This document shows, one piece after another, positions 22,955-62,464 of a stretch of DNA of 64,000 nucleotides (the first letter of the stretch is position 1; every line of letters starts with the position of its first letter). The translations under genes were made by a program, and so were the position numbers. The notes below the pieces were generated by a model, which was not told the DNA's origin, did not search any database, and was given only the letters and a program-made list of their open reading frames with translations. Source of the stretch: Candidatus Poribacteria bacterium (GTDB taxonomy: Bacteria > Poribacteria > WGA-4E > WGA-3G); NCBI GenBank assembly GCA_965198235.1, contig OZ240248.1:3072001-3136000 (forward strand). The letters run 5' to 3'.

Positions 22955-23249
22955 GTAGGTTGGGTTGAACGAAAATTTACTAAAAACGGCAGAAAGCAGA
23001 TGACTCTCCAGCATCGGGAAACCTGAAATTAACAAGTCTCGAGTGAAACCCAACGCATTCTTGCCTCCATAACGTTTGGTTTGTTGGGTTTCGCTATAGG
23101 TATCTCCAAGAATCGGTACTTGAAAATCGGAATTCTCGGTATAAACTATAGGACTTTTGGTGTTTTACTGCTCAACCTGGGGGAAAAAGAAACGCCCTAT
23201 CAATACGCAGAAATACCCAAGCAAAAACACCCCAAGCAAAAACACCTAC
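22955..23249. repeat. composite REP-like element with insertion in its right end
   Basis: Same layout as 6633-6865. The terminal CTCAACC..CTAC is interrupted by sequence ending in CCCAAGCAAAAACAC x2. Confidence 0.75.
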
Positions 23250-23280
23250 GTTCATACTGACAATTGACAACTATTAAAAC

Positions 23281-24336
23281 ATGATAAAAAGAATCAATAT
23301 CCAGTGGCTCGCAACGCCTGTTCTAATTCTCGTGAGCGCGTTTGTCACAAACGCCATCATCATGTTACTCTGTCACTATAACCCACTGGAAGCTTACCAA
23401 GCAGCGGTGAGTGGAGCATTCGGTACTGGGAGGAAGTTCGGAGAAACGCTGGTGAAGAGTACACCGTTTCTGATGGCGGGGCTTTCCGTTGCGATGGCGT
23501 TTCGGTGCGGGATTTGGAATATCGGTGCCGAGGGACAGTTTTTGATGGGCGCATTAGCGGCGACATGGTTTGGGACGAAACTCGCCGCATTTTTCCCCCA
23601 AAGCCCGTGGGTTGCAGTGCCGTTGTGCCTCGGACTTGCTACACTCGTAGGCGGAATATGGGGACTCATTCCCGCGATCCTCAAAGTGGCGCGCGGGGTC
23701 AACGAAGTTATCAGTACCATTATGTTGAATTACGTCGCGCTTCATTTGGTGAGTCTGATGATAGATGGGGGTCCCTTGCAGGAGGCAGCGCAACGTGGTC
23801 CCCAGAGTGATCGGATAGTTCAGTGGGTATTTCTGCCACGTCTTTTTCCACCGCATCGGGTCCACCTCGGCATTGTTATCGGATTTCTATTGGCGATTAT
23901 CCTCACATTTATTCTTTTTCGGACGGCGTTCGGGTATCAACTCCGCGCGGTAGGAGAGGGTGCGGCTGCAGCAGAAGCGGCAGGCATCTCGATTGTGCAG
24001 AACACGCTCCGCGTCTTTTTCATCAGTGGGGCACTCGCAGGGCTTGGCGGCGCAATTGAGTTGACAGCACTGACCCGTCGACTTTTTCTTAACTTTTCTC
24101 CCGGATACGGCTACACGGCGATTGCTGTCGCTTTGTTGGCAAAACTGAATCCGTTGGTGACGGTTGCTGCTGCGCTCCTGTTTGGCGCGCTAACGACGGG
24201 TTCCTATAGCATGCAGCGCGAGGTCGGCATCTCCGATAAAGTGACGTTGGTAATGCAAGCGACAATCCTACTTTTCGTCATCGGCTATAGTTCTATCCAA
24301 CTTTTCCGTAAACGCGCGTCTTCACATTCCGAATAA
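23281..24336 (+). CDS. nucleoside ABC transporter permease 1
   Basis: WNIGAEGQ, NEVISTIMLNY, GYGYTAIAVALL. Confidence 0.93.
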   Translation: MIKRINIQWLATPVLILVSAFVTNAIIMLLCHYNPLEAYQAAVSGAFGTGRKFGETLVKSTPFLMAGLSVAMAFRCGIWNIGAEGQFLMGALAATWFGTKLAAFFPQSPWVAVPLCLGLATLVGGIWGLIPAILKVARGVNEVISTIMLNYVALHLVSLMIDGGPLQEAAQRGPQSDRIVQWVFLPRLFPPHRVHLGIVIGFLLAIILTFILFRTAFGYQLRAVGEGAAAAEAAGISIVQNTLRVFFISGALAGLGGAIELTALTRRLFLNFSPGYGYTAIAVALLAKLNPLVTVAAALLFGALTTGSYSMQREVGISDKVTLVMQATILLFVIGYSSIQLFRKRASSHSE

Positions 24337-24642
24337 GAGTGGTTTGAAACCGAACTACTGAGGTCCGGAGGCATTTCTATATAGATGTGAAATAGACAAG
24401 AGGTTGAGTTCGTAGTAGGGCGATTTATCGCCCGTCGCATTGCAGAAACGCGCAATGAATTGCGCTACTACTAACAAAAAATTATATGCCGCCCCGAGTA
24501 AATATTGAGGCGTGGGTTAAGGCGAAAATTGTGCTTTATCTGAAAACAAAAAGCGTACTTGTTTAAATTGCCGCAGCAATCTAAGCAAAAACCGTTTTTC
24601 GACAACGGAGAAAAACGAGCAAAAAACCCAATAGTTAAAAGT

Positions 24643-25575
24643 ATGTTTGAAGATATTCTTTCAGCAACGATTCGAGGGGCAACCCCACTCCTGCTCGCCG
24701 CATTAGGCGAGGTCATCTCCCAGCGCGCCGGTGTACTTAACATCGGTATCGAGGGAATGATGCTCACAGGGGCGTTTTTCGGGATGGTCGGCTCCTTCTA
24801 CACGGCAGAATTTGCCATGATCGCACCGTGGTTCGGACTTTTAATGGCAGGTCTCAGTGGACTTATCGCCGCGGCGTTGTTTGCCCTCTGTGCGATAAGA
24901 CTGCGGGGTGACCAAGTTATTATCGGCACGGCGATGACGCTCTTAGCATTGGGCTTGACAGAGGTCGTCTATCAACGGCTCTTCGGCGTAACGGGGATCG
25001 CACAGGGAGTGCCAGCGTTCCAGCAAATTGACATTCCACTGCTCTCCCAAATCCCTTTCTTGGGACGTGCGCTGTTTTCGCACAACATCCTCGTTTTCAT
25101 CACATTCCTACTGGTACCGTGTGTCTATTTTTTTCTCTACCATACGCAACAGGGGCTTCGTGTCCGTGCCTGTGGTGAGCATCCGAGGGCGATTGCCGCT
25201 GCGGGTGCGAACGTCCTCCGTTTGAGAACAATTTGTCTGCTATTCGCCGGAGCGATGGCAGGAATGGCTGGCGGTTATCTCTCCCTTGCCGATGTGCCCT
25301 ATTTTACACCCGGTATGACGGTAGGACGCGGGTTCATTGCTTTGGCGATCGTCATCTTTGGGAAATGGCATCCTGTGAAAGCATGCGGTGCTGCCCTACT
25401 TTTTGGACTCGGTTCAGCACTCGATGCACGATTCCAAGCGTTGGGTTGGGGGGTTCCTTATCAGGTGTTTTTAATGTTGCCCTATGTGCTCTGTTTGGCA
25501 GTGCTGGCAGGGTTTGTCGGGCGCGCCGAAGCACCCTTCGCGTTGGGGAAACCCTACGGACAATCAGAGGGTTAG
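24643..25575 (+). CDS. nucleoside ABC transporter permease 2
   Basis: ATPLLLAALGE...AGVLNIGIEG, GRGFIALA..IFGKW. Confidence 0.93.
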   Translation: MFEDILSATIRGATPLLLAALGEVISQRAGVLNIGIEGMMLTGAFFGMVGSFYTAEFAMIAPWFGLLMAGLSGLIAAALFALCAIRLRGDQVIIGTAMTLLALGLTEVVYQRLFGVTGIAQGVPAFQQIDIPLLSQIPFLGRALFSHNILVFITFLLVPCVYFFLYHTQQGLRVRACGEHPRAIAAAGANVLRLRTICLLFAGAMAGMAGGYLSLADVPYFTPGMTVGRGFIALAIVIFGKWHPVKACGAALLFGLGSALDARFQALGWGVPYQVFLMLPYVLCLAVLAGFVGRAEAPFALGKPYGQSEG

Positions 25576-25703
25576 CGGTCAGCCGTCAGAACCGAGACTT
25601 TCATGCTTCTTCAATCTTTACTGTGATTATGGGACCTCTAATCATGGTACATCTGATAATCCTATCAATCACAGTTCAGACTTCTTCCGATTGCCGACAA
25701 CCC

Positions 25704-28700
25704 TTAAAAAGTACTGCCGAGACGAATGTGAAAGGCTCTGTCCGGATCTAAGGCACCCGGTATGGACACGAGTGGGATAGCATAATCTATTCCAGCTGTG
25801 AGGGCACCGAGGTCTAAGTAGAGTCCGGCACCGACAGAAGAGGGGAGTTGTGCCGTCGTATCGATATCCTCCAATGAATTCCAGACGTTGCCGGTATCAA
25901 AAAAGAACGCCCCGCGAACCATCCAATAGATCGGGAAACGGAGTTCCGTGTTAAAGATGAATTGCACATCGCCGCGATGTGTCCCTGTGCTATCTTCAGG
26001 ACCGAGAGAGCGCTCTGCATACCCTCGGACCGTTGTCCCGCCACCTACCCAAAACCGTTCAAAGGAAATCAATTCTGCGCGACGGTTTGAGCGCAGCCCG
26101 GTCGTGATACCAAATCGAACAGCCGTTGCTAAAACAAGTCCATCGATGAGTTCTTGATAATATCGAGTATCCGTGGTCGTCTTGATAAAGCTGGTTTCGC
26201 CTTGCAAGAAGCCACCCGCATATTCAAGCGTAAGCGCGTTCAGTATACCACCCGTAGGATTCAAATAACGTACACGGCTGTCATACGTCCAGGAGAATCT
26301 AACGCTGCTCACGGTTGTGCTGAAAGGATTCTGCCCGTAGGGGTTGGGTAACCCAACCCCTACAGCAGCGGTCTCTTGGATCGGTGGAACCGGTTGGTTC
26401 AGGTCACGGTAGCTATATCTTAGATTGAGGTGATGCGATTCGGACAAGTCTCTGCTGAGGATGAAACTCCCTTGCAGCGCGCGGACGTTATCGTCGACCT
26501 CTAATTTCTTGGCTAATACTTGTAAACTCCCCCGCGTCCGTCCGATCAACCACGGCTCGGTGAGCGTTGCATCAAAGAGATAACCTAACTCGTCTCGCCA
26601 TCCAAGTCTGGCGCGCGCGCGTCCTCGAATATTCCGATTAAAGAGAAAATTGCTGTCCGTTAACCCCAGCGTGCCGCGGAAACCCTCTGCGAAACTATAA
26701 CCGCTGCTCAAACCGAATGTCCTCGGCTTCTGTTTTTCGACAGTGATTAAAATATCGTTGATTTTCCTGGGACGGAGGTTAGGGGAATCTATAACCTCGG
26801 ACGATGGAGGTGTCCCTGTGCTGCGGGCAGACAGTGAGAGACGTTCATCTTGGACACTGTGAAAAAGCCCTAAGCTGTAGAGATTTTGCAAGACGCTACT
26901 TAACTTCTCTGAGGTCCAAAGGGTTCCTTCAAGGTGAGCGATTTCCCGTTCAAGCACGTGTTTTTTCACGACATCCGTGTCTCCCACAAAATAGAATATG
27001 CCGAACACTACCTGTTCACCTTCCGTATCCACAGTGAGACGAAGGACCCCGTGTTCATAAATCTCAAGATGTGTCGCTTCCTGTTTAAGTGTATACCGTG
27101 GATTCCCTTCAATGTCTTGGAGGCTCCAGCGGTTGCCGATATAGGTGGCTATGTAAACGCCTGTAAGTGTAAGATTATGTCTCTCGAATTCCGCTCGGAT
27201 TTCCGGAGGGAGTTTACCTTTCTCAAGGGGTGCCGAGAAATTACCCGTTACTCGAAAAACCGGATCTTCCGTTTCTGATATATACGAGTTACTAACCACC
27301 GCATCAATGTATCCGAGTTCGTAATAGGCTTTTAAGATTGCGTCGCCGTAGGCTTTCCGGGCAAGCGAGGCATTCGGCTGCGGGAGCGGGAGTTCACTCT
27401 GCAAACGTGCGAGGAGAGTCGCGGTATCTAACGCGTTGTTCCCGCTGATGTCGCATCGGTGAATCATCTCTTTATGTTCTTCAATTATTGTGACATGTAT
27501 TACAACTTCGCCTATATTTCGGTTGTTTGGATTCTGTTTATCGAGCGTTGTCTTGATGACTGCCTTCGGATAACCGGCTTTTCCGTATAAAATTTCGAGC
27601 CGATGTATATCTGTATCGAGTTCTGGTTCATAAAAAAGGGGAAACGCCCCAGCAAAAACACTCTGATCTCGCTGAAATAACAGTCTTGCGATGTTCGCTT
27701 GCAAGTTTCGCAGAAATCCGCCTATGGGTTTCATTGTCATCTCTCGCTTCAGTTTTGCATCCGAAAACGCCCGGTTCCCGGAGAACGTGACATCCTTAAC
27801 GACATAACGCGTCCCTGGGTTAATCGTAAGTCGAACACTGGATGCATCCAGTGTCTCCTCATCTACGGTGGTATCGTGATAGCCTTCGGCTTTGAAATAG
27901 GATTTTATCCGGCGTTCCCATATAGAAGGGGAGGCTGTGTTTATGAGAGAAATTATATCTTCTCTGAACGCATCTTGGAGCGATAAGGGGAGTTCTCCGG
28001 CATCCACAACGAAATTAAACTGAACCTCCTTGCCTTCATTGATGCGAAATTGTAACACACCCGTTTCAGGAACAAAGATTGGGGCGATGGTGGCGGTGGG
28101 ATAGTTGTTTTTATGGTAAAGTTCTAACATGGACGCTACGTCGGTATCCACGGCAGATTTGTTGTAAATCGGAGAGAGTCGGCTGAAGTTACAGACGGCT
28201 TTAAGGCGATTCGTTGAGATAGCAGTATTGCCCTGAATTTGCAATATTTTGATGATTGAGGCATCTCCTACAGTTATTTGGTAGGTTAACGTGCCAGCTT
28301 CGGTGAGGGCATTGGAGACTGTGACTTTAGCGTCAAAATATCCATACGCTTGACAAACTCTTTTGATACGCTGCGCATCGGTGTTGACGATTGTAGGTAC
28401 AAACTTCCCACCTTGCTTTGACCGCATCGCATTTTCGATAGCGTTCTTAAATTCGTTCTCGGGAATGCCGGAGAGCACAATTTGCTCGATGCGCGCGAAA
28501 GATGTTAGTTGGTAGGTTAAAACAATGCCGTCGGGCGTGTCCTGCGAGTATACCTGAATTTGGGAATACTGATGTGTCGCGTAGAGTGCTTTAATGCTTT
28601 GTCGAATGGCATGCCGAGACAGTAGTAGGTCGCCAGCGTATACGACTGTCTGGTTTCTGAGTATATTGAGCTGCTCTGTGGTTTCTTCCACGGGGGTTGT

Positions 28701-28868
28701 GTCAATATAGTACTCTATCTTTGCAATCCGTTTCTGATTGGATGCCCCACGTTGCGGGATAGCTGTTTCCTCTGGTCTCTTTGTATTGCGTGAGAGTTCC
28801 ACTGATTCCTGCGCTTCTACAGATTGCAGAAAAAAGCAGCAGGGAAACCATAAGATAGCAATCAGCAA
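25704..28868 (-). CDS. BamA/TamA-family (Omp85) outer membrane protein with POTRA domains
   Basis: POTRA-like repeats (FSGNRAFSD), GGGTTVRGY, ELRFPI, FFDTGNVW, terminal Phe. Start uncertain; nearest in-frame TTG is 28868. Confidence 0.85.
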   Translation of the reverse strand: MLIAILWFPCCFFLQSVEAQESVELSRNTKRPEETAIPQRGASNQKRIAKIEYYIDTTPVEETTEQLNILRNQTVVYAGDLLLSRHAIRQSIKALYATHQYSQIQVYSQDTPDGIVLTYQLTSFARIEQIVLSGIPENEFKNAIENAMRSKQGGKFVPTIVNTDAQRIKRVCQAYGYFDAKVTVSNALTEAGTLTYQITVGDASIIKILQIQGNTAISTNRLKAVCNFSRLSPIYNKSAVDTDVASMLELYHKNNYPTATIAPIFVPETGVLQFRINEGKEVQFNFVVDAGELPLSLQDAFREDIISLINTASPSIWERRIKSYFKAEGYHDTTVDEETLDASSVRLTINPGTRYVVKDVTFSGNRAFSDAKLKREMTMKPIGGFLRNLQANIARLLFQRDQSVFAGAFPLFYEPELDTDIHRLEILYGKAGYPKAVIKTTLDKQNPNNRNIGEVVIHVTIIEEHKEMIHRCDISGNNALDTATLLARLQSELPLPQPNASLARKAYGDAILKAYYELGYIDAVVSNSYISETEDPVFRVTGNFSAPLEKGKLPPEIRAEFERHNLTLTGVYIATYIGNRWSLQDIEGNPRYTLKQEATHLEIYEHGVLRLTVDTEGEQVVFGIFYFVGDTDVVKKHVLEREIAHLEGTLWTSEKLSSVLQNLYSLGLFHSVQDERLSLSARSTGTPPSSEVIDSPNLRPRKINDILITVEKQKPRTFGLSSGYSFAEGFRGTLGLTDSNFLFNRNIRGRARARLGWRDELGYLFDATLTEPWLIGRTRGSLQVLAKKLEVDDNVRALQGSFILSRDLSESHHLNLRYSYRDLNQPVPPIQETAAVGVGLPNPYGQNPFSTTVSSVRFSWTYDSRVRYLNPTGGILNALTLEYAGGFLQGETSFIKTTTDTRYYQELIDGLVLATAVRFGITTGLRSNRRAELISFERFWVGGGTTVRGYAERSLGPEDSTGTHRGDVQFIFNTELRFPIYWMVRGAFFFDTGNVWNSLEDIDTTAQLPSSVGAGLYLDLGALTAGIDYAIPLVSIPGALDPDRAFHIRLGSTF

Positions 28869-29037
28869 TCGGCAATCAGCAATCAGTTTCCGTCGTCCAA
28901 CGGTTCTTTCTTTTTCAAAAAGTCTTCGTATTGTCGAAAGTGTGAGTCCTTCAAAGAGATCGTCAAGGTGCCCACTGATGACTGAAAGCGAAGTGTGCTG
29001 ATGGCTGAAAGCGAAGCGTGCTGATGGCTGACGGCTA

Positions 29038-32000
29038 TTAAAAGCGTCCCTTGAATTCAATGTCAATCCCGTGTTCCCTTTTTTCGTTCGTTTCAATCTT
29101 AATGGATACATTTTTTCCAAGTGGGTACTCCGCACTGATATATCGGGCATCTTCATCAAGCGGGCGATGAAAACTAAACGTGAACCCACCGAGTGCGCCT
29201 GAGAGCGCGGCATTGTGTACGAGGAAAGTTATAATATCGGCATGTGTGAGGACTTCTGTGGTCGTTTCAGGCGGCGCGCTCAGGATGAAGTTGGGATTGC
29301 TTAGGGTGCCAGTAAAGGAGGCATAAACCTGAAGATCCACTGTGCTTCCATCTCTCGGTAGCACGCCTCGAATGCGGTTCGGTGTGCGGAGAAAAATATT
29401 GAGTTCCGGATCAAAATCGACGGTGCTCTGGTTACTGATTCGAGAGCCTTCGAGGAATTCAAAGGTCTGCGCAACGAACCCAATTTTTCCGCTGAGTACC
29501 GAAACGTTCCCACTGAAAACCGGCTCATTAATTGGACCGAAGAGTTTGCCTAAACAGGCGATTTCAATATCTGTAGGTCCTGTGATAGATGAAAGCACAC
29601 GAAAATTATCGGAAATGTTAATATCTACCCCATCCACATGTAAATCACGTAGAATTGGGTAGTCCAATACAAGTTCCGTTTCCTTGACCGAAACCCCTGT
29701 AAGCCAATCCCGAACTGTTTCCCAATTTTGTTGATAGTAGCCGCCCCTAATGTGTACGCTCCCTGTTAGATACGGGCGAAGAAGTTCACCGTGCAGACGA
29801 AATGCGGTGGAAGCAAGCTCAACCCGATACTGTCCCGGTTGTTCAAAAACTGTTGATGTGAGACCGGTGGACAAGTTCAACGTCGGGGGTTTCTCCCATA
29901 TATGTCTATCGGGTGGGGCTGTAACGCTGCCTGCAACCGAAAATTGCCCGTCATTCAAGGTGCCATCAAGTCTCTTAATATTCGCGCCTTTTTCTGATAA
30001 CCTAATGTCGCCTTCAGCCTCTTTAACTTCAATGCCAGCTTCCGGAAGTTCAAACCCAATATTATTAAAAACCACACCACCGTCGGCTTGTGGGGCTTCT
30101 ATCGTCCCTGTCAGTTTGATATGAATTTCACTTGTGCCTATTGCGGTGCTGAGTCCCGGAACCACAAACGGTAGCATGGTAAGGTCGTTTACTTTTATAT
30201 CCAAAGTCCCACGCATCGGGATCTGTTGGAGTTCCCTCCAAACTTTTTCTGGGGACTGTTGCAGTGCCGTAAGAAACGGAATTAACTCAAATTTGTGAGG
30301 CATCGTCCATGAGAAAGTCATTTGATTTTCACCAAAATTAACTTCAACGTACCGTTTCTCTGTAATTTCCCATTTTCCGTTCTGATATCGGATTCTCCAT
30401 CGCAGATCAATCGGGATGTCGTGTAGATAGAGTTCGGCGGGTTCGTTTTCGTGTCGCCGCAGGGTTATCTTCGGATCCGCACTGGTGCCGCTCATCTGTA
30501 GACTTCCCGACAAGGCACCGGTAACCCGATACGGCGCGGGCCACGCCCCCGTTATCGCTGAGACATCAAAATTCTTGAACCGAAGCGCGCCGTCAAATTC
30601 CCCGTTCACCGCCCATTTGCTTTCAGCATCAATACTGAGCGTTGTTTTGGCTGAAAGTGTTTGTTCATCACCACGTAAACCTTCAGGTTTTGTATCCTCA
30701 TCGGTAAAGGTCTGCTTGACTGAAAATTCATCTCGGTTTTCAAGAGTGAACATTTTAGTTAAAAACAAAGTTCCATCACTGAGAATTATCGGAGTCGGTC
30801 GCGGATCTTGGAAGTCATAACGCCGATCCATTGCCTTGAAAGCGAGGCGGACGTCATCAATTGATAAAATCGCATTTGAAACAGCCACGAGTTTTTTAAC
30901 GATTGACCCCTGGGCATCGTTCCACTTCGTTTCACGATGGTGTTCGGTGAAGTCAGAATCTTTGAGCACCTGGGGTGGGTTGGAATTCGATGAAAACCAC
31001 CGCGAAACGTAGTGGAGCGGTGACCGGAGTCCCATAGTTAAGAAGTTGTCGAACGGTACTGTTAAGGTTCTCAGTGTCGTTGTTAGATGCCCCTCTACCT
31101 CTTCTAACATGTCTGGCGATAAGGCATGACGGACAGTTGAACCGAGTGGGAATCGTTCTAATCTCAATCCTCGTAATATCAAATATTCTGGTGTTAAGCC
31201 GTCTAATGCTACCTGCCCTTGTTCAAGTTTACAGTCACCATCCCCTATGTCAAATCGGAACTCTGTGAAATCAATCAGGTCCTCTTGCACGCTGAGTTGC
31301 ATCTGCATATTCTGAAGAGGCTCGTGAAAGTCCTTGAGACGCAGTTGCGGTGCTTCAAGAAACACCTTTCCGACTGGATACGGAGAGTGACTTGTGCCTT
31401 GTATTCCCAAGTCTATGTCAACAGTACCATCTGCTTCTGAAAAGACGGTATCAATCCCTGGGAAGAAGTTGAGAGGCAGTTCGCTACCTCGAAGACGTAC
31501 ATCGATTGGTGCCGCAATAAATCGCTCAGATATATCCATCGCTTCAAATGTCAGATTAAACGGAATAACACCTGTGAGGGTTAACGTCCCTTCACGGTTT
31601 TTGAGTTCAATTCCGGTGACGTTTATGCGTTCATCTCGGTACTCGATTTTGCCTGTCCATTCCTTTTCATTGATCCTGCCGTGCCACTCTACTGCGATTT
31701 CAGGTGAGGTGAAGGTGCCTGCAATGTTGACCTCCGTCGTTGCTGTCATAGCAGGTGATGTGAGTTGTAACGGAATGTGCACAGCAAGGGGCTCTGCCTC
31801 TTCAGTGGTTCCCCCCGGATCAGATCTAAATCGGAGCGGTGCGCTGTTAGTGAGACGAAAATCGTAGCCATCAAGTTCCAGTTCGTTTATTTCACCAATT
31901 ACCGTAATCTGCTGTGGGTCTAAGCCTGTACCGCTAAGCTTAACATATCCTGAAGCGAAACCATAGTCCCCAATTTCTATTTGTGACGCTGATACATCAA

Positions 32001-35000
32001 TTTCAAAATGGCTTTCAGCCTTCGGCTGTCGGCTTTCAGTGAAGATGTTTTCTTGCCGATTGCTGATTGCTGACGGCTGTCGGCTATTTTGGCGTGAGAA
32101 CACGGCTTTTCCTTGAACACGGTAGGGACCATCTCCCATCAGTCCGTGCGCCTCCGCCCTTTGAATACGTACGAATTCTGAATCGAAGTGAATATCTACA
32201 CGAAGTCTCTCCAACGTAAGAGAGGGAATATAAGAGACCAAGCGGATCGGACGCTGTAAGGCTGTTTCAGCGTATAGTAGAGCAAGAGGCTCAGCGAGCG
32301 TACCACCGATCTCTACTGAAGCTTCTAAAATTCCAGTTATCTCGTCACCAGAGACAAGGGTATCGATAGCTTCCATCGGTAAGGTAGCGAGATCTAAGGC
32401 AATCGTATCGACGCGGAGGTGTAACTCCGAGTTATTGATCTCTTCGGGCTGAACGTCAATATACCCTTCCAAGTTCACGTCGTTACCGAAGAGTTTGAAA
32501 GCGCACCCCTCAAAACGCAGCGTCTTCTCCTGATATGTTATTGCACCACCCGCATCGGCGATGTCAATATCACCCGCTTCTGTTTCTAATGTTAGCGTCG
32601 GGATTGCCCATTCTAACTGAACACTGGGTTGGGTGGGTGTTCCTGTCGCTTTCAAGTCGTAACGGGCGACACCGGTTTGCAGCATGCCAATCGGAAGTCC
32701 CAATGCGTCTGCAAACGGCGGCAGCGCGAACCCGTCAGATACAACGTGCAGGTTCATCGTCTCACTTTTTGCATCCAGGGTTCCTGTCAATTCAAGAAAT
32801 GGGTTTTTTAATGATTCGCTAGGCGTTAAATCAAGCGATTGGTTTAGCGACGGTTTTTTCTTAACCTCCGCCTGCGCCGTTGTTGCAGGCTGCCGTTTTT
32901 TTGTTGATTCAGATGTCCTTAAGGAAAGGACATCGATTGTCCATTTGTCGTCTTTGAGATGCAGGCGAATCGGTTCAGCATTTGTGAACGTAATTCCCTG
33001 CGCTGTAGTGGTCTCGTAGTGGAGTTGGGAGGTCCTGACAAGAATATCCACATCGTAGGGATAGATCTGCTGTTTCTGGGATTCAGAGGCTATGTTCTCG
33101 GCTGATGGCGCAAGGTCTGCCACTGTTCCACTTATTGACGCGCTCCCGCCAGCGGTCCCTGTAACCGCTTCAAGTGCTGGGTGTAGTATGGGCAGGATCG
33201 GTGTAATATTAAATGTCTCACTCTCCGCTGTGAATTGGTACGGATTCCCTGTAGCCATGCTGACGTAACCCTGAATCCGGCTTGTTCTCTCAAACCCGTG
33301 TCCATGGAAGTCGAAGAAACTGGCGAAAATATCAGGTTCACCGCCGGTTTCAGAGTTATCAGTGTATTGGCTATCAGCCATCGGTTTCCGTCGGTTGTCG
33401 GTTAAGAGGTTTTTTGGTGAAGTGACACCCTCTTGCTCAGACTCTCCCACGCGCTTCAAAAGCTTTGTATCAGTAGGTGTGGGCGAGTCTGTGCTGACGG
33501 CTGACGGCTGAAGACTATTTTCTACGAGTGTGCCGAGCAGATAGACATCACCGAGCGGATATTTCGTCCCGCGTTCGTTATGTAGGAAGGTTACATCTGA
33601 GAAATCGAGTTCAACCTGAAAATCGGCACTTACCGGTTTTTTGAGCGTTCCAACGACCCGAACATCGAATCGTCCTTCAAAGGGGAAATCGGAGAGGTTT
33701 GCCGCCTTTGCAATTTCTTCTAAGTGGACAGACGCGTCGCTTTCGAGGCGGAGGTCATAGTCACCGTTCGAGGCTACTGCAACATTAAGTGTAACCTGCT
33801 GCCCGCGGGTAGTCATCTTGAAGTCTGGCACTGTGAGGTTGTAATCCTCAATTTCCAAAGGGAGCGTCAGCGGATCCAAATGAATACCCCATGCTACGCC
33901 TTCGGTAACACTGAAGTTAGCAGTGCCATCCAGATTGATGAGCGTTCCATCCAATTTGAGTTCGCCTCTGATTTCACCGTCTACAGGATATTCGGCACCT
34001 AACAATAGTTTCGAGTAATGTTGAACGTAAACCGGATCGGCGACGATGCTGAAATTCGCTGGGAATTCGTCTTTGACCTCCACAGTCCCCGTAATTGTGG
34101 TCCGACTCTCGTATTCAGTTTTTCTAATTATTGCTCCTGGGCTGCCCTCCACTGTGGGAGGGGTTTGTAACCCCGATTTCTTTCGGTCAGGTTTTTGGTT
34201 GATTCCACCTGAGTTAGGGAAATCAGGTGTGGCTTCTATGGTGTTTTTCGTCATCAAACCGTTTTCGATAAATACCCGTCCGTCTTGATAGCGAAAATTA
34301 CCCGCCAAAATGCCGATCGGAATGTCATTGAAGGTCGCATTCAGGATTTCCATAAACCCGGTCAGTGTGCCCTCCGATAACTGCGCAGACAATTCCGCTG
34401 TCCCGCTGATATCCGTACTGTTGGCGATTTTCATTAGGTCATCGAAATTGATGCCCAAGGCGTGAATCTCCAACACATCTTGTTGGTCCAAGGGGAAGGG
34501 ACCTGTGATATTAATCTCGGTTTCATCTAAGTTCCCGTCGATTTTCAATTCACCCGCTGCTATTGTGCAATTGAACATTGAATCGTCAAGTTTCACTTCG
34601 TCGAGGGTTGTTTCTGTTAGCACTATCTTACTGTCGAGTTCGAGACTTTGTAGGGGCGAGGTAACCTCGCCCCTACGTCCGCCGAATTCTCCGCTGCCGG
34701 AGAGAAGTCCTGTGCTATCTACAAGGTTTTCTGGCAGTTGGACGAACATCGACAGCAGGGGAATCAGCTGTATTTTTGTAGCATCCCATTTTCCACGGTA
34801 GCGAATCGGATGGAGCGTTAATTGTTGAAGCTGCGTTAGCAGATCGCCTTCCAACGCGTTTTCTGATGTGATGCTTCCATCGCCGACCACGGTGCCGTCG
34901 GCGACTTGGAAACTAAGTTTTTTTAATGTGAATATTGGGGAGGGTTCAGAATTGAAATCCGCGTCAACATGTCCTGCTGTCAACGCTATATTGGGGAGAC

Positions 35001-35922: not shown

Positions 35923-36059
35923 ATTTTAATTTATGGTCCTCTGAGCGATGCCTCCGTTGTTGGCATCGAATGTAAAATTGTTAAGAAACCTTTGATAATC
36001 TAAAGTCGGGTTTTTAACGATTGGAAGACTGCGCGGAACGTTTTTCTAACTATAGAAAT

Positions 36060-36133: not shown

Positions 36134-36218
36134 GGAAGTTGTGTCAACTGCTCCAGGTGCTGAAAGGAATTCCTTTGAAGTTCTCCAGCGGAGAGCCATG
36201 TCTATAGAGAAGTGCAGC

Positions 36219-37085: not shown

Positions 37086-37369
37086 TTTTTTAACGATTGG
37101 CCTCTGCGCATCGTTCCACTACGTTCCACGATGGTTTCCGGCGAAGGTCCATGGGGTTGGTAACATGAAATCGATTTTCAGATTTTTTAACGATTGGCCA
37201 TTGCACATCGTTTCTCTATAGAGATTGTTTCGCAGTGAGAACCCTAAGAGTCGAGGGAAACACCCCAGCAAAAACACCCCTCCCACAGTTCAGTTCTCGT
37301 TGAAATTGACCAAAAACCTGCCTGAAACGTAGTGGAAGGCAGATCGAGGGCCAATTATTTAAAAACCAA

Positions 37370-41161: not shown

Positions 41162-41356
41162 ATCTGTTTAAATAGCCATCGGCTCTCGGGTCGCTTCGCT
41201 TTCGGCAGTCGGCTATCACTAAGAGAACCTTTTCACTGACCGCTGACAGAGAACCGATTACTGATGACTCTTCTGTAAGAGCGAGTGTTTTTGCTTGGGT
41301 GTTTCCCTCAGGCTCGCGATCTTGCTGATAACTGATAACTGACAACTGACTGCTGA

Positions 41357-42194: not shown

Positions 42195-42300
42195 GTAGGA
42201 GCGAGTGTTTTTGCTTGGGTGTTTCCCTCAGGCTCGCGATCTTGCTGACAACTGACCCGCTGACCCCCCTTCTTCTGTAGGAGCGAGCTGTGCTCGCGAT
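42195..42300 (+). repeat. adjacent filled and empty REP-like hairpins
   Basis: GTAGGAGCGAG[TGTTTTTGCTTGGGTGTTTCC]CTCAGGCTCGCGAT and GTAGGAGCGAGCTGTGCTCGCGAT. Confidence 0.85.
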
Positions 42301-42822
42301 CTATTCTTTTTCTAACGCCGCAAGTGTAAAAACGGATGCGAACGAACAACCGATCGCATTAATTTTCGCCGCGCCGCCTGCCTGTCGATCGATGGCTGCT
42401 ACAACGTGTTCCACCGTATATCCCTCCGCGCGGATCTGCTCAATGGACGTACAAACTTGTCCCGCAGTCGTAATTACATCCTCTATAACAACGAGCGTGC
42501 TTCCTTCTTTAACACCGCCTTCTATGAGGTTGCACGTTCCGTACGTTTTCGCTTCCTTCCGTACGTAGAAACAGGGGAGTCCGGTTTGCAACGAGAGGGC
42601 AGTCGCGAGCGGAATACCCCCTAATTCTAAGCCTGCCAAACCGTCGCATTCGGATGGCAGCAATTTCGCCATCTCTTCGGCAATAGCAGTGAGCAGCGCA
42701 GGGTTGCTCTCGAACCGGTATTTGTCCCAATAGAAGTTGCTGATGTTCCCAGAACGGAGTACGAATTCTCCTGTAAGATATGAGACAGCGCGTATCTGTT
42801 TCGCGAGTTCTGTTTTTGTCAT
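42301..42822 (-). CDS. pyrE: orotate phosphoribosyltransferase
   Basis: GEFVLRSG, VRKEAKTYG, VIEDVITTAG. Confidence 0.92.
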   Translation of the reverse strand: MTKTELAKQIRAVSYLTGEFVLRSGNISNFYWDKYRFESNPALLTAIAEEMAKLLPSECDGLAGLELGGIPLATALSLQTGLPCFYVRKEAKTYGTCNLIEGGVKEGSTLVVIEDVITTAGQVCTSIEQIRAEGYTVEHVVAAIDRQAGGAAKINAIGCSFASVFTLAALEKE

Positions 42823-47821: not shown

Positions 47822-48098
47822 GAATATTTTTGTCTGAATCGCAGATTCTCACGGATGACGCGGATTGAAAGAGGTTTTGGTATGTAGATCGTCGTAGCCC
47901 GTAGGGGCGGTATCTATGTAGAACCGCGTCCACCCACACATCTTAGCCCCAGCGGGGCGACAGGTGTATGACTGCCCGATTTCCTGTGTAACGAAACATT
48001 GGCATCAATGGCTAATATGCTGTACAATAATTTATGGATATCCCGTTGATTATAGGCGCGGCTTGCAACCGCACCGGGTTGAACAAGGAGGTAAAACC

Positions 48099-49551: not shown

Positions 49552-50513
49552 TATGTGTTTCTCCTGTTCCGTAAGATGCCTGAAAACAGGTGTTAAGGTT
49601 TTAACTCTGGGGTTGCATCGTGTGTTAAGTATATCCTAAAATCGCGGTTTTGTCAAGGATTTTTCAATGTTGCATAGGGGCATTCAGTTCTTCTGTAGGA
49701 GGGGGAAACACCCAAGCAAAAACACTCCGAATCCAGACTTCTATCCCTCCGATAGGCACGATTCACGGAGGCTTCACGGAGGGTTTTCTAAGGTCAGGTG
49801 GGACGTGGGTTCGTGAAACGCAACATGTCCTTTCTCCGTGAAAATACGAAATGATAAATTAGAATTAACGAAATATCTCATACAAATAGTGCCGTAGGGA
49901 CGATGTGTTTATAGAATATTTTGTCTGAATCGCGGATTGTCGCGGATGACACGGATGACGCGGATTTTTTATTGTGGGGGGTCGTTGTCTGAATCAGGAT
50001 TTTCAGGATTAAAGGATTTGCAGGAGAGTCGCCAATAGCCCTCTTTGCTCCAGCAGAGCAATATTGTTTCGCAGTGAGAATAGCAAAGGATACCCCGTAA
50101 TACCCGCAAGCCGAAGAAAGTGCTATGTGGCTCGTTTACCCTATGTGTAATGGTTGTTGATGGTTGTTTTCGTCTGAATCGCGGATTGTCGCGGATGACA
50201 CGGATGACGCGGATTGGAAGAGGTTTTAGTATGTAGATTGTCGTAGCCCCGTAGGGGCGGTATCTGTGTAGAAACTCGCCACCCACACATCTTAGCCCCA
50301 GCGGGGGTTTTTGCTTGGGTGTTTCTTCAAAATATGTGCATAGAACCGCTTTCCAATGGCTGGTGATCCAACGCGGCAAGACAAACATTGAGCATATTTT
50401 CCACCTCTTCCCGCGTATCATCACGCAACGGACCCGAAAGTGCCGCACAATAAAGACTTGGTTTCATGAAGGGTCTGCAACGTTCAAAGCTCTCTAATCC
50501 TGCAAATCCTGAT

Positions 50514-53500: not shown

Positions 53501-53653
53501 CCGGACGGTGTCTCTGTCGAAATGGTCAACAGCAATCCCCTCAAGAAATGCTTGGAGATGTGGGAATAACGAAAGTTCTGGGGTTGCCTCGGAAGTGGTT
53601 TGTGTTTGTTGGACGTTTTGTAGATAACGGTTGCAACGTGTATGAAAATTCAT
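50514..53653 (-). pseudogene. single-chain restriction-modification enzyme (N6 MTase plus type ISP-like specificity domain), frameshifted
   Basis: ORF1 has PDF...GYIEAE, GVYYTP and LDPATGTG; ORF2 has GNPPY and DFPRIP. One base is missing near 52305-52310; restoring it gives PFAGFISDEANAALSVKRDEP. Confidence 0.82.
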
Positions 53654-55605: not shown

Positions 55606-55666
55606 TGCCCCGCAGGAGAGACCTCCGATCAATAATCGAATGCCGCTGACGGTGCGGACAAACCGC

Positions 55667-55695
55667 TTGACAATGAAATATCTACATGGTATCCT
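55667..55695 (+). promoter_or_regulatory. sigma70-type promoter
   Basis: TTGACA-N17-TATCCT with extended TG. Confidence 0.6.
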
Positions 55696-55748
55696 TATTT
55701 AAACCGTTATGTATAAGAATATTGGTGCTACGGCTTGAGGAAAGAGAA

Positions 55749-57359: not shown

Positions 57360-57376
57360 CATTCGAGGAGGATGAA

Positions 57377-58138: not shown

Positions 58139-58216
58139 CGAGAATAGGCAATGAGGTTGAGGCACCTATTCTAATTGAATCTTGTCCGAGCGAACATTCA
58201 CTAAGAAGAAGCAGCC

Positions 58217-59410: not shown

Positions 59411-59413
59411 CAA

Positions 59414-61540: not shown

Positions 61541-61682
61541 GTTGTGATCCTTTCCAAGTGAACGGTTCAGGATATGATAACAACATAACGGGATTTGTCA
61601 AGGCTTTGCTATTCCTCTGTAGGAGGGATCTCCGAATCCCGACGCTTACTGACCGATGACCGCCGAATAAAAAGATGGCAAC

Positions 61683-61712
61683 AAAAAAGGGACCGGTAAA
61701 ACCAGTCCCTTT
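61683..61712 (-). terminator. intrinsic terminator, duplicated at about 62410-62437
   Basis: On + strand AAAAAAGGGACCGGTAAAACCAGTCCCTTTT. Confidence 0.75.
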
Positions 61713-61735
61713 TGACATGCATTAAACGCTGCGTT

Positions 61736-62077
61736 CTATGCGGATAGTCCTGAAACCGCCGCATCCTCGTCGTTGTAATGCTCAAACATACTCACGAGAC
61801 GACTCAGAACGACCAGGTTTTTGATATGTTTGCCAACATGGATGACACCAATGCGCCCATTCTTTCGGGTTGTGAGCGCACGTGCCTCCATGAGAGCACC
61901 GAGTCCTGAACTGTCGATCATATTGACGTTCTCAAAGTTGATGAGGATACGTGGTGAATCAGATGTCTCTATCTGCGGCGCGATTGCCTCTCGTAATTCT
62001 AATGCTGAGGGTCCCACAATTCTTCCACTGGGTTCCAAAATCGCTACGCCGTCTTGCTGACGAATTTGAGTTGACAC
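61736..62077 (-). CDS. STAS-domain anti-sigma factor antagonist
   Basis: INFENVNMIDSSGLGAL; GTG start with AAGGAG. Confidence 0.92.
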   Translation of the reverse strand: MSTQIRQQDGVAILEPSGRIVGPSALELREAIAPQIETSDSPRILINFENVNMIDSSGLGALMEARALTTRKNGRIGVIHVGKHIKNLVVLSRLVSMFEHYNDEDAAVSGLSA

Positions 62078-62464
62078 TGTTTTTCTCCTTTTTCATTTAC
62101 GAAACCATTGAAAATGTATATTACTTTTTTTACTGTTTACGCAATTTGAATGTTCAATTGAAGCATTCGTTATTTTAGACGCATTTCCTCGAAAAAAGTT
62201 GGATTTTTTTCATTTTTTTTATGAATAACCCATTTTATAAATAATTCTTCAACTTTTTGAGGGATTTCCGAATCACGACGACCGATTGCTGACTGCTGAC
62301 CATCCTTCTTCTGTAGGAGCGAGTGTTTTTGCGGATTTCCCTGTGCTCGTGATTCTTACTGTAGGGGCAGGTCTTGTGCCTGCCCAAACATTACTGCTCT
62401 TACACGCACAAAAAAAGGACCGGTAAAACCGGTCCTCATTTGACATAGCACTGAACTTTAGATA

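What the first reader, a model, noticed from the sequence alone, without database searches (positions are those of the whole stretch)
23210..62353. Fixed 21-nt micro-insert (GGAAACACCCAAGCAAAAACA) found inside several different hairpin repeats
Seen: 8 sites, at 23210-23245 (with a 15-nt tandem reiteration), 27640-27660, 37256-37276, 41286-41306, 42206-42226, 49704-49724, 50307-50325 and a 17-nt variant at 62324-62340. Empty alleles define the junctions. GTAGGAGCGAG|CTGTGCTCGCGAT (42277) compares with filled 42195, 41275 and 62313. GTAGGAGGG-AT-CTCCGAATCC (61619) compares with filled 49695, in the opposite orientation and with 2 nt lost. GCCCCAGCGGGGC (near 47946) is cut off by the insert at 50307. 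There are no IRs or target duplication. Inference: it is too short for a MITE and looks like a constant oligonucleotide patched into breaks at hairpins, for example at RAYT/HUH nicks, perhaps from an RT-made donor; the tandem copy suggests reiterative templated addition. Mechanism is speculative and no responsible enzyme lies in this window.
Basis: partly seen in the sequence, partly recalled or inferred. Interest (0 to 1): 0.87.

Follow-up and report, generated by a model that had tools for sequence, protein, structure and literature searches.

The report
Tiny mobile loop-replacing repeat in Poribacteria
A CA-rich DNA module of about 21 bases, often reiterated into arrays, has been copied into about 250 places in this sponge-symbiont genome, mostly replacing loops of other small hairpin repeats and once landing in frame inside a gene, which makes it a rare example of a very small mobile repeat with no known machinery.

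Summary
All 8 sites exist (7 hits at up to 3 mismatches, 0 expected). The genome belongs to Candidatus Poribacteria, and the motif's core is its commonest 12- to 14-mer. About 250 arrays of 19-193 nt occur genome-wide. The 14-mer core was found in 24 of 24 same-genus genomes and 0 of 16 from other genera.

It is a genuine insertion. At least 15 host repeat families (GTAG-type REPs, MITE-like elements, an IS) hold both empty and filled copies. Orthologous sites differ between species. One copy sits in frame in an Omp85/POTRA gene and is missing from 25 of 25 orthologues.

One to eight target bases are lost. There is no target duplication and no inverted repeat. The 3' junction is sharp, and the bases that follow read (A)CCC, like the unit's own continuation. 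The 5' junction is fuzzy (T-G-R-R-G).

No reverse transcriptase gene was found. Y1/RAYT genes exist but also occur in genera without the motif.

The closest analogue is the cyanobacterial small dispersed repeats. The mechanism is unresolved. I favour microhomology-assisted copying from existing copies, plus slippage and hitch-hiking on host repeats.

The parts
23178..23244 (+). 67-nt compound array: TGGGGGAAAAA-GAAACGCCCTATCAATACGCAG-AAATACCCAAGCAAAAACA-CCCCAAGCAAAAACA. It sits in a host repeat ...CTCAACC|array|CCTACG. Empty members of that repeat family read GTTCAACC-CAA-CCTAC.
   Evidence: sequence; unit grammar; GTAGGTTGGGTTGA host 14-mer, 113 copies
27638..27660 (+). Single unit GGGGAAACGCCCCAGCAAAAACA inserted in frame, in antisense orientation, inside the Omp85/POTRA gene. 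It replaces 5 nt for a net gain of 18 nt. The local peptide reads ...QRDQSVFAGAFPLFYE...
   Evidence: 25 of 25 orthologues that cover the site lack it; Pfam Omp85 and POTRA; translation
25704..29213 (-). Host gene of the coding insertion: a 1169-aa Omp85-family protein with POTRA repeats.
37255..37276 (+). Single unit GGGAAACACCCCAGCAAAAACA (CAGC variant) placed just 5' of CCCCTCCCACA, which is the reverse strand of a GTGGGAGGGG-type REP. The intergenic region 37086-37369 holds different repeats in each related species.
   Evidence: (CAGC variant present in 13 copies across several host families)
41286..41310 (-). Unit TGAGGGAAACACCCAAGCAAAAACA in the loop of a GTAAGAGCGAG...CTCGCGATC REP.
42206..42230 (-). 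Unit TGAGGGAAACACCCAAGCAAAAACA in the loop of a GTAGGAGCGAG...CTCGCGATC REP whose GTAG tag starts at 42195.
42277..42300 (+). Empty copy of the same REP, GTAGGAGCGAG-CTGTG-CTCGCGAT. It folds as a stable hairpin.
   Evidence: (dG -7.0 kcal/mol, z -2.9, against z of about 0 for filled copies)
49704..49724 (+). Unit GGAAACACCCAAGCAAAAACA replacing the AT loop bases of a GTAGGAGGG..CTCCGAATCC REP.
61619..61640 (+). Empty copy GTAGGAGGG-AT-CTCCGAATCCC. A second empty copy lies at 19377.
50307..50329 (-). AA..C-subtype unit TGAAGAAACACCCAAGCAAAAAC placed at the 5' foot of the REP hairpin CCCCGCTGGGGC, where it replaces CG.
   Evidence: (this REP type flanks the RAYT-like genes)
47946..47972 (-). Empty copy of that REP. 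On the minus strand it reads ...CACCTGT-CG-CCCCGCTGGGGC.
62324..62340 (-). Short 17-nt form GGAAATCCGCAAAAACA (head of the first unit joined to the tail) in a GTAGGAGCGAG...CTCGTGAT REP.
   Evidence: (similar short forms elsewhere in the genome)

Best explanation
This is a very small, non-coding, non-palindromic mobile repeat module that I compare to the small dispersed repeats of cyanobacteria.

The basic unit is (T)G-R-R-G-AAAC-ACCC-AAGC-AAAAAC(A). That is about 1.5 turns of a 13-15-nt CA-rich tandem repeat, optionally preceded by 10-nt AAATCCGCAG units.

Shown:
- It enters new sites as an insertion that replaces 1-8 target bases.
- It makes no target duplication and goes in either orientation.
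- Most sites are loops or feet of GTAG-type REP hairpins and MITE-like repeats; some are unique or coding sequence.
- Copies then persist, diverge, and expand or collapse.

Inferred:
- New copies are templated from existing copies, not from one master template. This happens during replication or repair at structure-prone DNA.
- The 3' junction is set by 2-4 nt of microhomology between the target (...AA|CC.. or ..G|CCC) and the unit's own ..AAAAAC|(A)CCC continuation.
- The 5' return junction is imprecise.
- Arrays grow and shrink by slippage between the internal direct repeats.
- Much of the copy number comes from hitch-hiking on the host REP/MITE families once a member is filled.
For: Insertion and its polarity:
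- In the Omp85 gene, 25 of 25 orthologues lack the insert.
- At own C1:988557, 24 of 29 species, including the most distant, are empty and 5 are filled, one of them with an expanded array.
- In one orthologous intergenic repeat, G068 is empty while G018 and G014 are filled.
- At 7 further loci this genome is empty where a relative is filled.

Many independent contexts:
- 76 non-redundant flank contexts.
- At least 15 host families hold both empty and filled copies.
- About 8 nested insertions lie inside reverse copies of the module itself.

Microhomology and polarity, from the 76 non-redundant contexts:
- Position +1 is A in 61% and C in 32%; +2 is C in 89%; +3 is C in 65% and T in 26%. This matches the unit's own continuation AAAC|ACCC.
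- The 3' end is always ..CAAAAAC.
- The 5' junction varies: -3 is G in 65%, and -2 and -1 are purines.
- In my own tally of 20 empty sites read have AA directly before the C-rich right flank.

Copy-from-copy:
- The 5' dinucleotide and the base after the 3' end covary. Among single units, AA..C versus GG..A gives 39:8 against 6:66, Fisher p = 3.6e-17. Among non-redundant contexts it is 6:1 against 4:17, p = 0.003.
- The CAGC and TATC variants recur in different host families.

No dedicated template machinery found in this genome:
- No reverse transcriptase, IS110-type transposase or Prim-Pol.
- No strand or replichore bias: 120 plus against 139 minus.
- No orientation bias against flanking genes: 60 sense against 73 antisense.

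Slippage:
- 205 of 244 arrays parse with a small unit grammar.
- Orthologous arrays differ in unit number.
- Partial remnants exist, such as ..AAGAAACACCC|TTCCAC.
Against: - Template switching normally copies nearby sequence. Why this one dispersed sequence should be the donor in more than 70 independent contexts is unexplained.
- The T-G-R-R-G head is rather constant for a junction set only by microhomology. The covariation of the two ends fits a discrete element with defined ends equally well.
- Microhomology at the 5' side is weak or absent at several clean sites, for example CATT|CAA|CCC giving CATT|TGGGG....
- The C-rich right flank could be the target preference of an enzyme rather than an annealing site.
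- No experiment or population data were obtained. The read-laying attempt was uninformative.
- The gene map used for the intergenic and orientation counts is a crude longest-ORF map.
Confidence: 0.4

Rival explanations
1. It is a non-autonomous micro-element moved in trans by a dedicated enzyme. The obvious candidates are the HUH Y1 transposases (RAYT or IS200/IS605 TnpA), which act on single-stranded hairpins. An unrecognised integrase or nuclease-ligase that cuts at hairpin loops or feet and joins in a discrete about-23-nt single-stranded segment is also possible.
For: - The hosts are GTAG-tagged REP hairpins. Three RAYT-like genes are flanked by the very REP type (..GACATnnnCCCCTACGGGG) that carries inserts at its 5' foot.
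- There is no target duplication and no inverted repeat, as in IS200/IS605 elements.
- The two ends of the unit covary as if it were a discrete entity.
- The head T-G-R-R-G is fairly constant across 76 contexts.
- Y1 genes are present in 24 of 24 genomes of the genus.
Against: - Y1 genes are also present in 5 of the 7 other genera sampled, none of which carries the motif.
- The module has no hairpin of its own, whereas IS200/IS605 ends need subterminal hairpins.
- There is no strand or replichore bias, although the origin could not be placed well from GC skew.
- Empty sites do not contain a conserved pre-existing 4-5-nt target next to the left end.
- Target bases are lost in variable number, 1 to 8.
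- Some sites are in non-hairpin coding DNA.
Confidence: 0.25
2. It is a templated patch written from one master template, an RNA copied by a reverse transcriptase or a telomerase-like reiterative copier, into breaks at hairpins.
For: - The arrays are polar and built from reiterated units. The 10-nt units lie 5' of the first 3'-type (e) unit in 80 of 85 arrays that have both.
- The 3' end is constant and the 5' end variable, as in target-primed reverse transcription.
Against: - No PF00078 match in six frames of a 96%-complete, two-contig genome, and no Prim-Pol.
- Linked variant subfamilies spread across host families, which needs several masters.
- No array was seen beside a candidate gene or inside a structured RNA. 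Rfam found nothing in the window.
- Simple units are not plain 5' truncations of the long arrays: they read AAACACCC where the long arrays mostly read AAATACCC.
Confidence: 0.05
3. It is not independently mobile. The module is an old loop variant of a few repeat families, and it spreads only by the host repeats' own transposition and by gene conversion between paralogous repeats, or is kept by selection as a protein- or RNA-binding site.
For: - At least 111 of 262 arrays sit in 9 multi-copy host families, so hitch-hiking and within-family conversion are surely part of the story.
- Some copies are old and conserved, shared by three species at own C1:204659. Diverged copies are shared by many species at C1:4768748.
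- The head often contains a GGA motif.
Against: - Unique-sequence and coding insertions have empty orthologues.
- There are 76 non-redundant contexts.
- Host families have unrelated stems, so there is no flanking homology for ordinary gene conversion.
- Copies are nested within reverse copies of the module.
- Both orientations occur in one hairpin family.
- There is no orientation bias relative to transcription.
- Insertion weakens the hairpin rather than conserving a structure.
Confidence: 0.1
4. It is a footprint left by excision of a larger element that targets hairpins. The footprint is made of the element's two termini, and repeated visits build the arrays.
For: - A constant sequence without target duplication, with loss of target bases, fits a footprint.
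- The arrays could record repeated insertion-excision cycles.
- An IS200/IS605-like IS of this genome has ACCCAAGC in its left-end hairpin.
Against: - None of the 38 long-repeat (600 nt or more) intervals whose ends were inspected ends in the module's halves.
- Orphan half-sites are chance matches or nested or collapsed copies, not boundaries of long inserts.
- The exact 21-mer gave 0 matches in viral contigs.
Confidence: 0.05

Closest known systems
Small dispersed repeats (SDR1-8) of Nostocaceae (Elhai et al. 2008, Genome Res 18:1484). The paper is not held here. I rely on passages in PMC4390886 and PMC5861425 that cite it, and on my recollection of its abstract.
   Same: - Units of about 21-27 nt that are dispersed in high copy number.
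- No coding capacity and no known transposase.
- They lie inside other repeats or palindromes: SDR5 sits precisely between the 3rd and 4th base of HIP1, according to a passage in PMC4390886.
- Mobility was inferred from presence and absence at orthologous sites (recalled).
- They can be tandemly reiterated (passage in PMC2884548).
   Different: - The phylum differs (Poribacteria). PMC5861425 states that no SDR-like repeat was found outside Nostocaceae among HIP1-rich cyanobacteria.
- The junctions here are not precise: 1-8 target bases are replaced.
- The targets are REP or MITE loops and feet with a C-rich right flank, not HIP1.
- In-frame coding insertions are documented here.
- Sequence relatedness to SDR1-8 could not be tested.
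GTAG-tagged REP / BIME elements and their RAYT transposases (Di Nocera et al. 2013, PMC3733652, passages read; Bertels and Rainey 2011, PMC3116915, passage read)
   Same: - The hosts of the module are such REPs: a GTAG or GTGG tag plus a 5-8 bp stem.
- Short loops often read CAA, matching the CMA loop consensus in PMC3733652.
- RAYT genes flanked by REPs are present.
- REPs can lie in frame inside genes.
- BIMEs are mosaics of palindromic units and constant extra motifs.
   Different: - The module itself is not palindromic, has no GTAG tag and destroys the hairpin's stability.
- One and the same module occurs in many REP families with unrelated stems, and also outside REPs.
Rickettsia palindromic elements (RPE), named in PMC3733652
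   Same: Small repeats that insert in frame into protein-coding genes and persist as extra peptide segments.
   Different: RPEs are 100-150 bp palindromic elements (size recalled). This module is 19-23 nt and not palindromic.
MITEs and IS200/IS605 mini-elements
   Same: Non-autonomous, intergenic and high in copy number. IS200/IS605 elements also lack inverted repeats and target duplication and act at hairpins.
   Different: The module has no terminal inverted repeats, no target duplication, no subterminal hairpins and no strand bias. It is several-fold shorter than any described MITE (size range recalled).
Templated or filler insertions by template switching (MMBIR, FoSTeS, polymerase-theta end joining, quasipalindrome template switching). 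These are recalled concepts; no paper was read.
   Same: Loss of a few target bases, microhomology at a junction, copying of pre-existing sequence, and association with structure-prone DNA.
   Different: Those processes copy local or varied sequence. A single dispersed donor family that colonises hundreds of sites has not been described, to my knowledge.

Membership tests
Small dispersed repeats (SDR, Elhai 2008) | Unit of about 21-27 nt, dispersed in many copies, non-coding | tested here: met
   The core is 19 nt, or 21-23 nt with its junction bases. There are 244-262 arrays, and the exact 21-mer occurs 40 times.
Small dispersed repeats (SDR, Elhai 2008) | Found embedded in other repeats or palindromes | tested here: met
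   At least 15 host repeat families hold empty and filled copies. Nested self-insertions also occur.
Small dispersed repeats (SDR, Elhai 2008) | Presence and absence at orthologous sites of related genomes | tested here: met
Small dispersed repeats (SDR, Elhai 2008) | Precise insertion at a fixed target position (SDR5 in HIP1) | tested here: not met
   Between 1 and 8 target bases are replaced and the 5' junction is fuzzy.
Small dispersed repeats (SDR, Elhai 2008) | Sequence or structural relatedness to SDR1-8; occurrence in Nostocaceae | not testable with these tools
   The paper is not held. The organism is a Poribacteria MAG, so common descent is unlikely.
MITE | Terminal inverted repeats and target-site duplication; length of roughly 50-500 bp | tested here: not met
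   The unit has no inverted termini. Empty and filled pairs show replacement, not duplication. The length is 19-23 nt.
REP (GTAG superfamily) | Imperfect palindrome forming a stem-loop, with a GTAG tag at one end | tested here: not met
   The module is CA-rich and unstructured, and filled hairpins fold no better than shuffled sequence (z -0.7 to +0.7). The hosts, not the module, meet this feature.
IS200/IS605-type mini-element (Y1 HUH mobilised) | Subterminal hairpins at both ends, a conserved pre-existing 4-5-nt target 5' of the left end, and insertion biased to one replication strand | tested here: not met
   There are no hairpins within the unit. Empty sites lack the T-G-R-R-G head. The strand split is 120 plus to 139 minus with no replichore difference, although the origin is poorly defined.
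RT-dependent elements (retron, DGR, group II intron, telomerase-like) | A reverse transcriptase gene in the genome | tested here: not met
   PF00078 gave 0 matches in the own genome.
CRISPR repeat or off-target spacer integration | Sequence equals the CRISPR repeat, or variable spacers lie between constant repeats | tested here: not met
   The genome's CRISPR repeat (56 copies, 37 nt) is unrelated in sequence.

The most novel reading that the evidence does not exclude
Poribacteria possess an undescribed, dedicated way of writing a short fixed DNA segment into single-stranded hairpin loops or feet. A structure-specific nuclease-ligase or Y1-type enzyme would use excised single-stranded copies of the module as substrate. 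That would make this the smallest mobile DNA with an identifiable mechanism, a parasite of REP elements, and the solution to the SDR puzzle that has been open since 2008.
Probability: 0.15. Interest if true: 0.9.

Novelty: new variant of a known kind. Interest (0 to 1): 0.62.

Why it matters
Mobile DNA is thought to need either its own enzyme or at least recognisable ends for someone else's enzyme. Modules of about 20 nt that nevertheless colonise hundreds of sites have, as far as I could find, been described only once, as the cyanobacterial SDRs, and their mechanism is still unknown.

This second, unrelated case has practical advantages:
- It lies in a genus with dozens of closed genomes.
- Empty and filled alleles are abundant.
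- At least one coding insertion has clear polarity.
- Variant subfamilies are linked across the unit.

Together these make the question testable by comparative genomics and simple biochemistry.

The finding also shows three further things:
- REP loops can be overwritten and the hairpins thereby disabled.
- Such modules can add peptide segments to conserved proteins, here an Omp85/POTRA protein.
- They are a major source of intergenic turnover in sponge symbionts.

In practice the module is a ready strain-typing marker and a likely cause of assembly breaks in Poribacteria metagenomes.

Tried and rejected
**Adapter or assembly artefact: rejected.** The motif is present in 24 of 24 other genomes of the genus and in at least 112 stretches of independent assemblies, and one copy is in frame in a gene.

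**Cyanobacterial origin: rejected.** This was my first guess from the GTAG and heptamer repeats. The record titles name Poribacteria.

**End of a longer IS, or an excision footprint.** A self-BLAST found 48 merged long-repeat intervals (600 nt or more) on C1. I inspected the ends of 38 of them, and none ends in the module. One IS copy merely carries an insert. The orphan half-site scan gave only chance, nested or collapsed copies.

**CRISPR link: rejected.** Cas1 and a 56-repeat array exist, but the repeat is unrelated.

**Enzyme candidates.** RT, IS110-type transposase and Prim-Pol were not found in the own genome. Y1/RAYT as a discriminating marker failed, because Y1 genes are also in genera that lack the motif.

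**Strand and replichore bias.** None was seen, but cumulative GC skew gives no clean origin or terminus, so this test is weak.

**The claim that all sites are hairpin loops.** This holds only in part: 59 of 262 arrays against 111 of 1048 random sites have a perfect stem of 5 bp or more within 10 nt.

**Rfam.** No family matched in the window.

**Viral contigs.** The exact 21-mer gave 0 matches.

**Public reads.** All four runs are kept as short Logan contigs from mixed related strains, and the contigs break at the repeats. No allele, transcript end or expression statement can be drawn, including for the RNA library.

**Literature searches for a prior description:**
- 'small dispersed repeat' + cyanobacteri
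- SDR5 + Nostoc
- Poribacteria + repetitive + palindromic
- Poribacteria + intergenic + repeats + mobile
- 'Very small mobile repeated' + 'cyanobacterial genomes'

None of the listed titles or abstracts concerns such a module in Poribacteria or outside cyanobacteria; only listings and the cited passages were read. Supplements were not consulted. Elhai et al. 2008 could not be read, so what I say of it is from citing passages and recall.

Full report
**1. What is there**

The 21-mer GGAAACACCCAAGCAAAAACA occurs 7 times in the window at up to 3 mismatches, and none of 100 dinucleotide shuffles gave a match. A wider motif scan found no further copies in the window. Site 1 is in fact a 67-nt compound array at 23178-23244.

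- The REP GTAGGAGCGAG-CTGTG-CTCGCGAT is empty at 42277 and filled at 42195, 41275 and 62313.
- GTAGGAGGG-AT-CTCCGAATCC is empty at 61619 and 19377 and filled at 49695.
- ..TGT-CG-CCCCGCTGGGGC is empty at 47947 and filled at 50296.

**2. Whole-genome and taxonomic scale**

The window is G000:C1:3072001-3136000 of a 5.17-Mb, two-contig genome.

Genome-wide counts:
- The 21-mer has 40 exact copies, 75 at up to 1 mismatch, 167 at up to 2 and 228 at up to 3.
- Its core CCCAAGCAAAAA(C) is the most abundant 12-mer (260 copies), and CCCAAGCAAAAACA (148 copies) tops the 14-mer list.
- Merging seed motifs gives 262 arrays of 15-193 nt.
- After joining split arrays and refining the ends, 244 remain, and 121 of them are the simple single unit.

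Taxonomic spread:
- The exact 21-mer was found in at least 112 stretches of the species-representative genome collection. All 80 listed records are titled as Poribacteria MAGs, except three titled 'uncultured bacterium'.
- The 14-mer core is in 24 of 24 sampled genomes of the same genus (2-101 copies each; 148 in this genome) and in 0 of 16 genomes from seven other genera of the order. The reversed control pattern gave 0-1 hits per strand in every genome.
- It was not found in viral contigs.
- It is in at least 120 stretches of metagenome contigs.

It is therefore a lineage-specific genomic repeat and not an artefact.

**3. Anatomy of the module**

Arrays follow a small grammar:
- Optional 10-nt units, AAATCCGCAG or AAATACGCAG, sit at the 5' side.
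- Then come one or more repeats of AAA[C/T][A/G]CCC + [AAGC|TATC|CAGC] + AA.
- These are joined either directly, giving ..AAAAAC(A)CCC.. with a 13-15 nt period, or through a TACGCAG detour.
- Arrays end in ..CAAAAAC.

A six-token grammar parses 205 of 244 arrays completely. The 10-nt units lie 5' of the first 3'-type (e) unit in 80 of 85 arrays that have both. The single unit is thus about 1.5 turns of a CA-rich tandem repeat.

Neither strand of the 21-mer has a stop codon in any frame (read directly from the sequence).

**4. It is an insertion that replaces target bases**

For each array I joined the two flanks and searched the genome with the joined sequence. Empty paralogues turned up for at least 15 host families. 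Examples, written left flank | replaced bases | right flank:
- CGTAGATC|CG|CCCTCC becomes |TGAAGAAAC..AAAAAC|.
- GAATCC|CG|ACTCCC becomes |TGGGGAAAC..AAAAAC|.
- GGCGAGGTTTCCT|A|ACCTCGCC becomes |TGGGGAAAT..AAAAAC|.
- CCATC|A|ACTCGTG becomes |GAAGAAAC..AAAAAC|. Here the insert lies inside the 5' arm of a 16-bp stem, not in a loop.
- GGGGTT|TGT|AACCCC is filled in both orientations.
- The hairpin loop GTTGAGGT inside an IS copy is replaced whole.

The module also inserts into reverse copies of itself at GCTT|GG|GTGTTTC, in about 8 instances across different hosts.

There is never a target duplication or terminal inverted repeat.

**5. Polarity and orthologous evidence**

(a) Omp85 gene. The copy at window 27638-27660 lies in frame in a 1169-aa Omp85/POTRA gene. 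I aligned 29 orthologous loci:
- 25 cover the site, 2 align only downstream, and 2 were not placed.
- All 25 that cover the site read CAGAG|ACGCT|TTTTTT.
- This genome reads CAGAG|TGTTTTTGCTGGGGCGTTTCCCC|TTTTTT, a net gain of 18 nt.
- The local peptide becomes ..QRDQSVFAGAFPLFYE...

(b) Conserved coding site C1:988557. Of 29 species, 24 are empty, including the most distant ones. Their sequence is of the type ..CCCTGG|AGCCAA|CCGCTG.. Five are filled, one of them with a 61-nt array, and the length differences are multiples of three.

(c) Orthologous intergenic repeat. G068 is empty (..TATATC-CG-CCCTCC..) while G018 and G014 carry TGAAGAAACGCCCAAGCAAAAAC at that position.

(d) Reverse test. I took 117 exact sites in the 112 loci of other Poribacteria genomes.
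- 66 had collinear anchors in this genome.
- Among them I read 7 loci where this genome is empty but has the host sequence (C1:988509, 1669570, 128049, 4564593, 510885, 354663, 4609470).
- I read 3 loci that are filled in both (204659, 2897838, 4768686).
- In many others the whole host repeat is absent.

(e) Coding site C1:4768748. The module is old there. Diverged versions and arrays of different length are shared by many species, and some species lack it.

Insertions therefore range from recent and species-specific to ancient.

**6. Where it goes**

By a crude longest-ORF gene map (85% of the genome called coding):
- 193 of 262 arrays are intergenic.
- 10 overlap an ORF end.
- 59 are inside called ORFs, mostly near ORF ends.

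Orientation shows no bias:
- Against co-directional flanking genes, 60 are sense and 73 antisense.
- By strand, 120 are plus and 139 minus on C1, with no difference between the tentative replichores. GC skew gives no clean origin.

The hosts are largely GTAG- or GTGG-tagged stem-loops, that is, REPs as defined in PMC3733652 (passages read), and longer MITE-like repeats. Three RAYT-like Y1 genes are flanked by REPs of the type that carries inserts at its 5' foot.

Not every site is a loop. Only 59 of 262 arrays have a perfect flanking stem of 5 bp or more within 10 nt, against 111 of 1048 random and 121 of 1048 random intergenic positions.

Insertion destroys hairpin stability. The empty REP at 42262-42305 folds with dG -7.0 kcal/mol and z -2.9. 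The filled copies and the array fold no better than shuffled sequence, with z from -0.7 to +0.7.

**7. Junction rules**

Across 76 non-redundant flank contexts:
- The core always ends ..CAAAAAC.
- The next bases are A (61%) or C (32%), then C (89%), then C (65%) or T (26%), then C (50%) or T (34%). This is the same (A)CCC that follows AAAC inside the unit.
- Upstream of GAAAC the consensus is Y-T-G-R-R: G is 65% at -3, and -2 and -1 are purines. These bases are not present in the empty sites.

I tallied 20 empty sites by hand. Eleven have AA, often CAA (the common REP loop), directly before the C-rich right flank. Five have G directly before it (CG in four of these).

The two ends covary:
- Among single units, heads ending ..AA-G go with a following C in 39 cases and A in 8. 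Heads ending GG, AG or GA go with C in 6 and A in 66 (Fisher p = 3.6e-17).
- Among non-redundant contexts the counts are 6:1 against 4:17 (p = 0.003).

Internal variants are linked to these types and recur in different host families. For example, CCCCAGC occurs in 13 copies across at least 5 hosts. The population therefore consists of subfamilies that breed true, which means copies descend from copies.

**8. Machinery**

Six-frame family searches of the own genome (96% complete) gave:
- No reverse transcriptase (PF00078).
- No IS110-type transposase.
- No Prim-Pol.
- One Cas1 beside a 56-repeat CRISPR array whose repeat is unrelated.
- Six Y1_Tnp hits.

Y1 genes occur in 24 of 24 genomes of the genus, but also in 5 of the 7 other genera sampled, none of which carries the motif. 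They are therefore not diagnostic.

Self-BLAST merged the long repeats (600 nt or more) into 48 intervals on C1. None of the 38 whose ends I inspected ends in the module's halves, and orphan half-sites do not bound long inserts. Rfam gave no hit in the window.

**9. Interpretation**

Shown:
- It is a very small repeat module that inserts, replacing a few bases, into many unrelated contexts, in either orientation, throughout a genus.
- It is copied from existing copies.
- It then expands, collapses or decays.

Inferred:
- I favour microhomology-assisted template switching or short-patch copying from existing arrays at structure-prone DNA. Part of the copy number then comes from hitch-hiking on REP and MITE families: at least 111 of 262 arrays lie in 9 multi-copy host families. 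Slippage does the rest.

What fits this model:
- The sharp 3' junction whose flank looks like the unit's own continuation.
- The fuzzy 5' junction.
- The variable loss of target bases.
- The lack of strand bias.
- The absence of a template polymerase.
- The breeding-true variants.

What does not fit well:
- The near-constant T-G-R-R-G head.
- The question of why only this sequence spreads.

A dedicated enzyme, a RAYT or something unrecognised, therefore remains a serious rival.

**10. Comparison and novelty**

The closest known phenomenon is the small dispersed repeats of Nostocaceae. It has the same scale, the same nesting inside other repeats or palindromes, the same inferred mobility and the same unknown mechanism. 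According to PMC5861425 it has not been reported outside that family.

The present module differs in four ways:
- The phylum is different.
- It replaces target bases rather than inserting precisely.
- It has its own target rule.
- In-frame coding insertions are documented.

My five literature searches listed no description of such a module in Poribacteria. I file it as a new variant of a known, poorly understood kind.

**Limits**
- The gene map is crude.
- Host-family clustering is approximate. The largest cluster, with 40 arrays, is an artefact of arrays that flank other arrays.
- The tally of empty-site junctions is my own reading of printed alignments.
- No population or expression evidence could be obtained.
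- Elhai 2008 and all supplements were unavailable.

Noticed in passing
G000 contig C2 (43.9 kb) against C1:775767-815774: The small second contig is nearly identical over about 40 kb to a stretch of the chromosome. It could be an integrated and free copy of a plasmid or prophage, or an assembly duplicate. It carries two copies of the module.
   Followed up: no
G000:C1:2722000-2741999 (locus L308): A CRISPR-Cas locus lies here. A Cas1 match sits in a 546-aa open frame, and an array holds 56 copies of a 37-nt repeat ending ATTGAAAC with spacers of about 38 nt. The repeat is unrelated to the module.
   Followed up: partly
G000:C1, e.g. 230856-232330, 365742-367191, 3150074-3151548, 4380178-4382025: IS200/IS605-like insertion sequences occur as about-1.45-1.54-kb copies and as 1848-nt copies carrying a Y1 gene. 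Their left-end hairpin ACCCAAGCCTAAAGACTTGGG shares the 8-mer ACCCAAGC with the module. This may be chance. Two diverged IS-related sequences carry the module in place of an internal hairpin loop: the copy at 2576406, and a related sequence at 1208224 that was not among the inspected long repeats.
   Followed up: partly
G000:C1:606918-607760, 1898575-1899420, 3853557-3854300: Three RAYT-like Y1 genes of 161-171 aa are flanked by REPs of the type ..CTATAGACAT(nnnn)CCCCTACGGGG / CACTCCGCTGGAGTG. One of them is followed by several tandem REP-containing repeats of about 100 nt, forming classic REPtrons.
   Followed up: partly
window 37086-37369 and its orthologues in 8 related genomes: The intergenic spacer between two conserved genes (one is DXP synthase) is 44-349 nt long and holds entirely different REP or MITE-like repeats in different species. 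Repeat turnover between species of about 90% coding identity is very fast.
   Followed up: partly
window 41320-41350 and 42240-42260, and many other REP flanks: Short tandem heptamer-like repeats (CAGTTAT, CAGTTGT, GGTCAGC and the like) adjoin the REPs.
   Followed up: no
window 25704-35922 (minus strand): A large envelope-biogenesis gene pair lies here: a 2294-aa TamB/DUF748-like protein, followed by the 1169-aa Omp85/POTRA protein that carries the in-frame insert.
   Followed up: partly
G000:C1:204534 (conserved in loci L008 and L037): A single unit lies about 40 nt upstream of a ribosome-binding site and ATG. It is kept, letter-perfect, in three species while its flanks have diverged. It might sit in a 5' leader and have a regulatory effect.
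   Followed up: no
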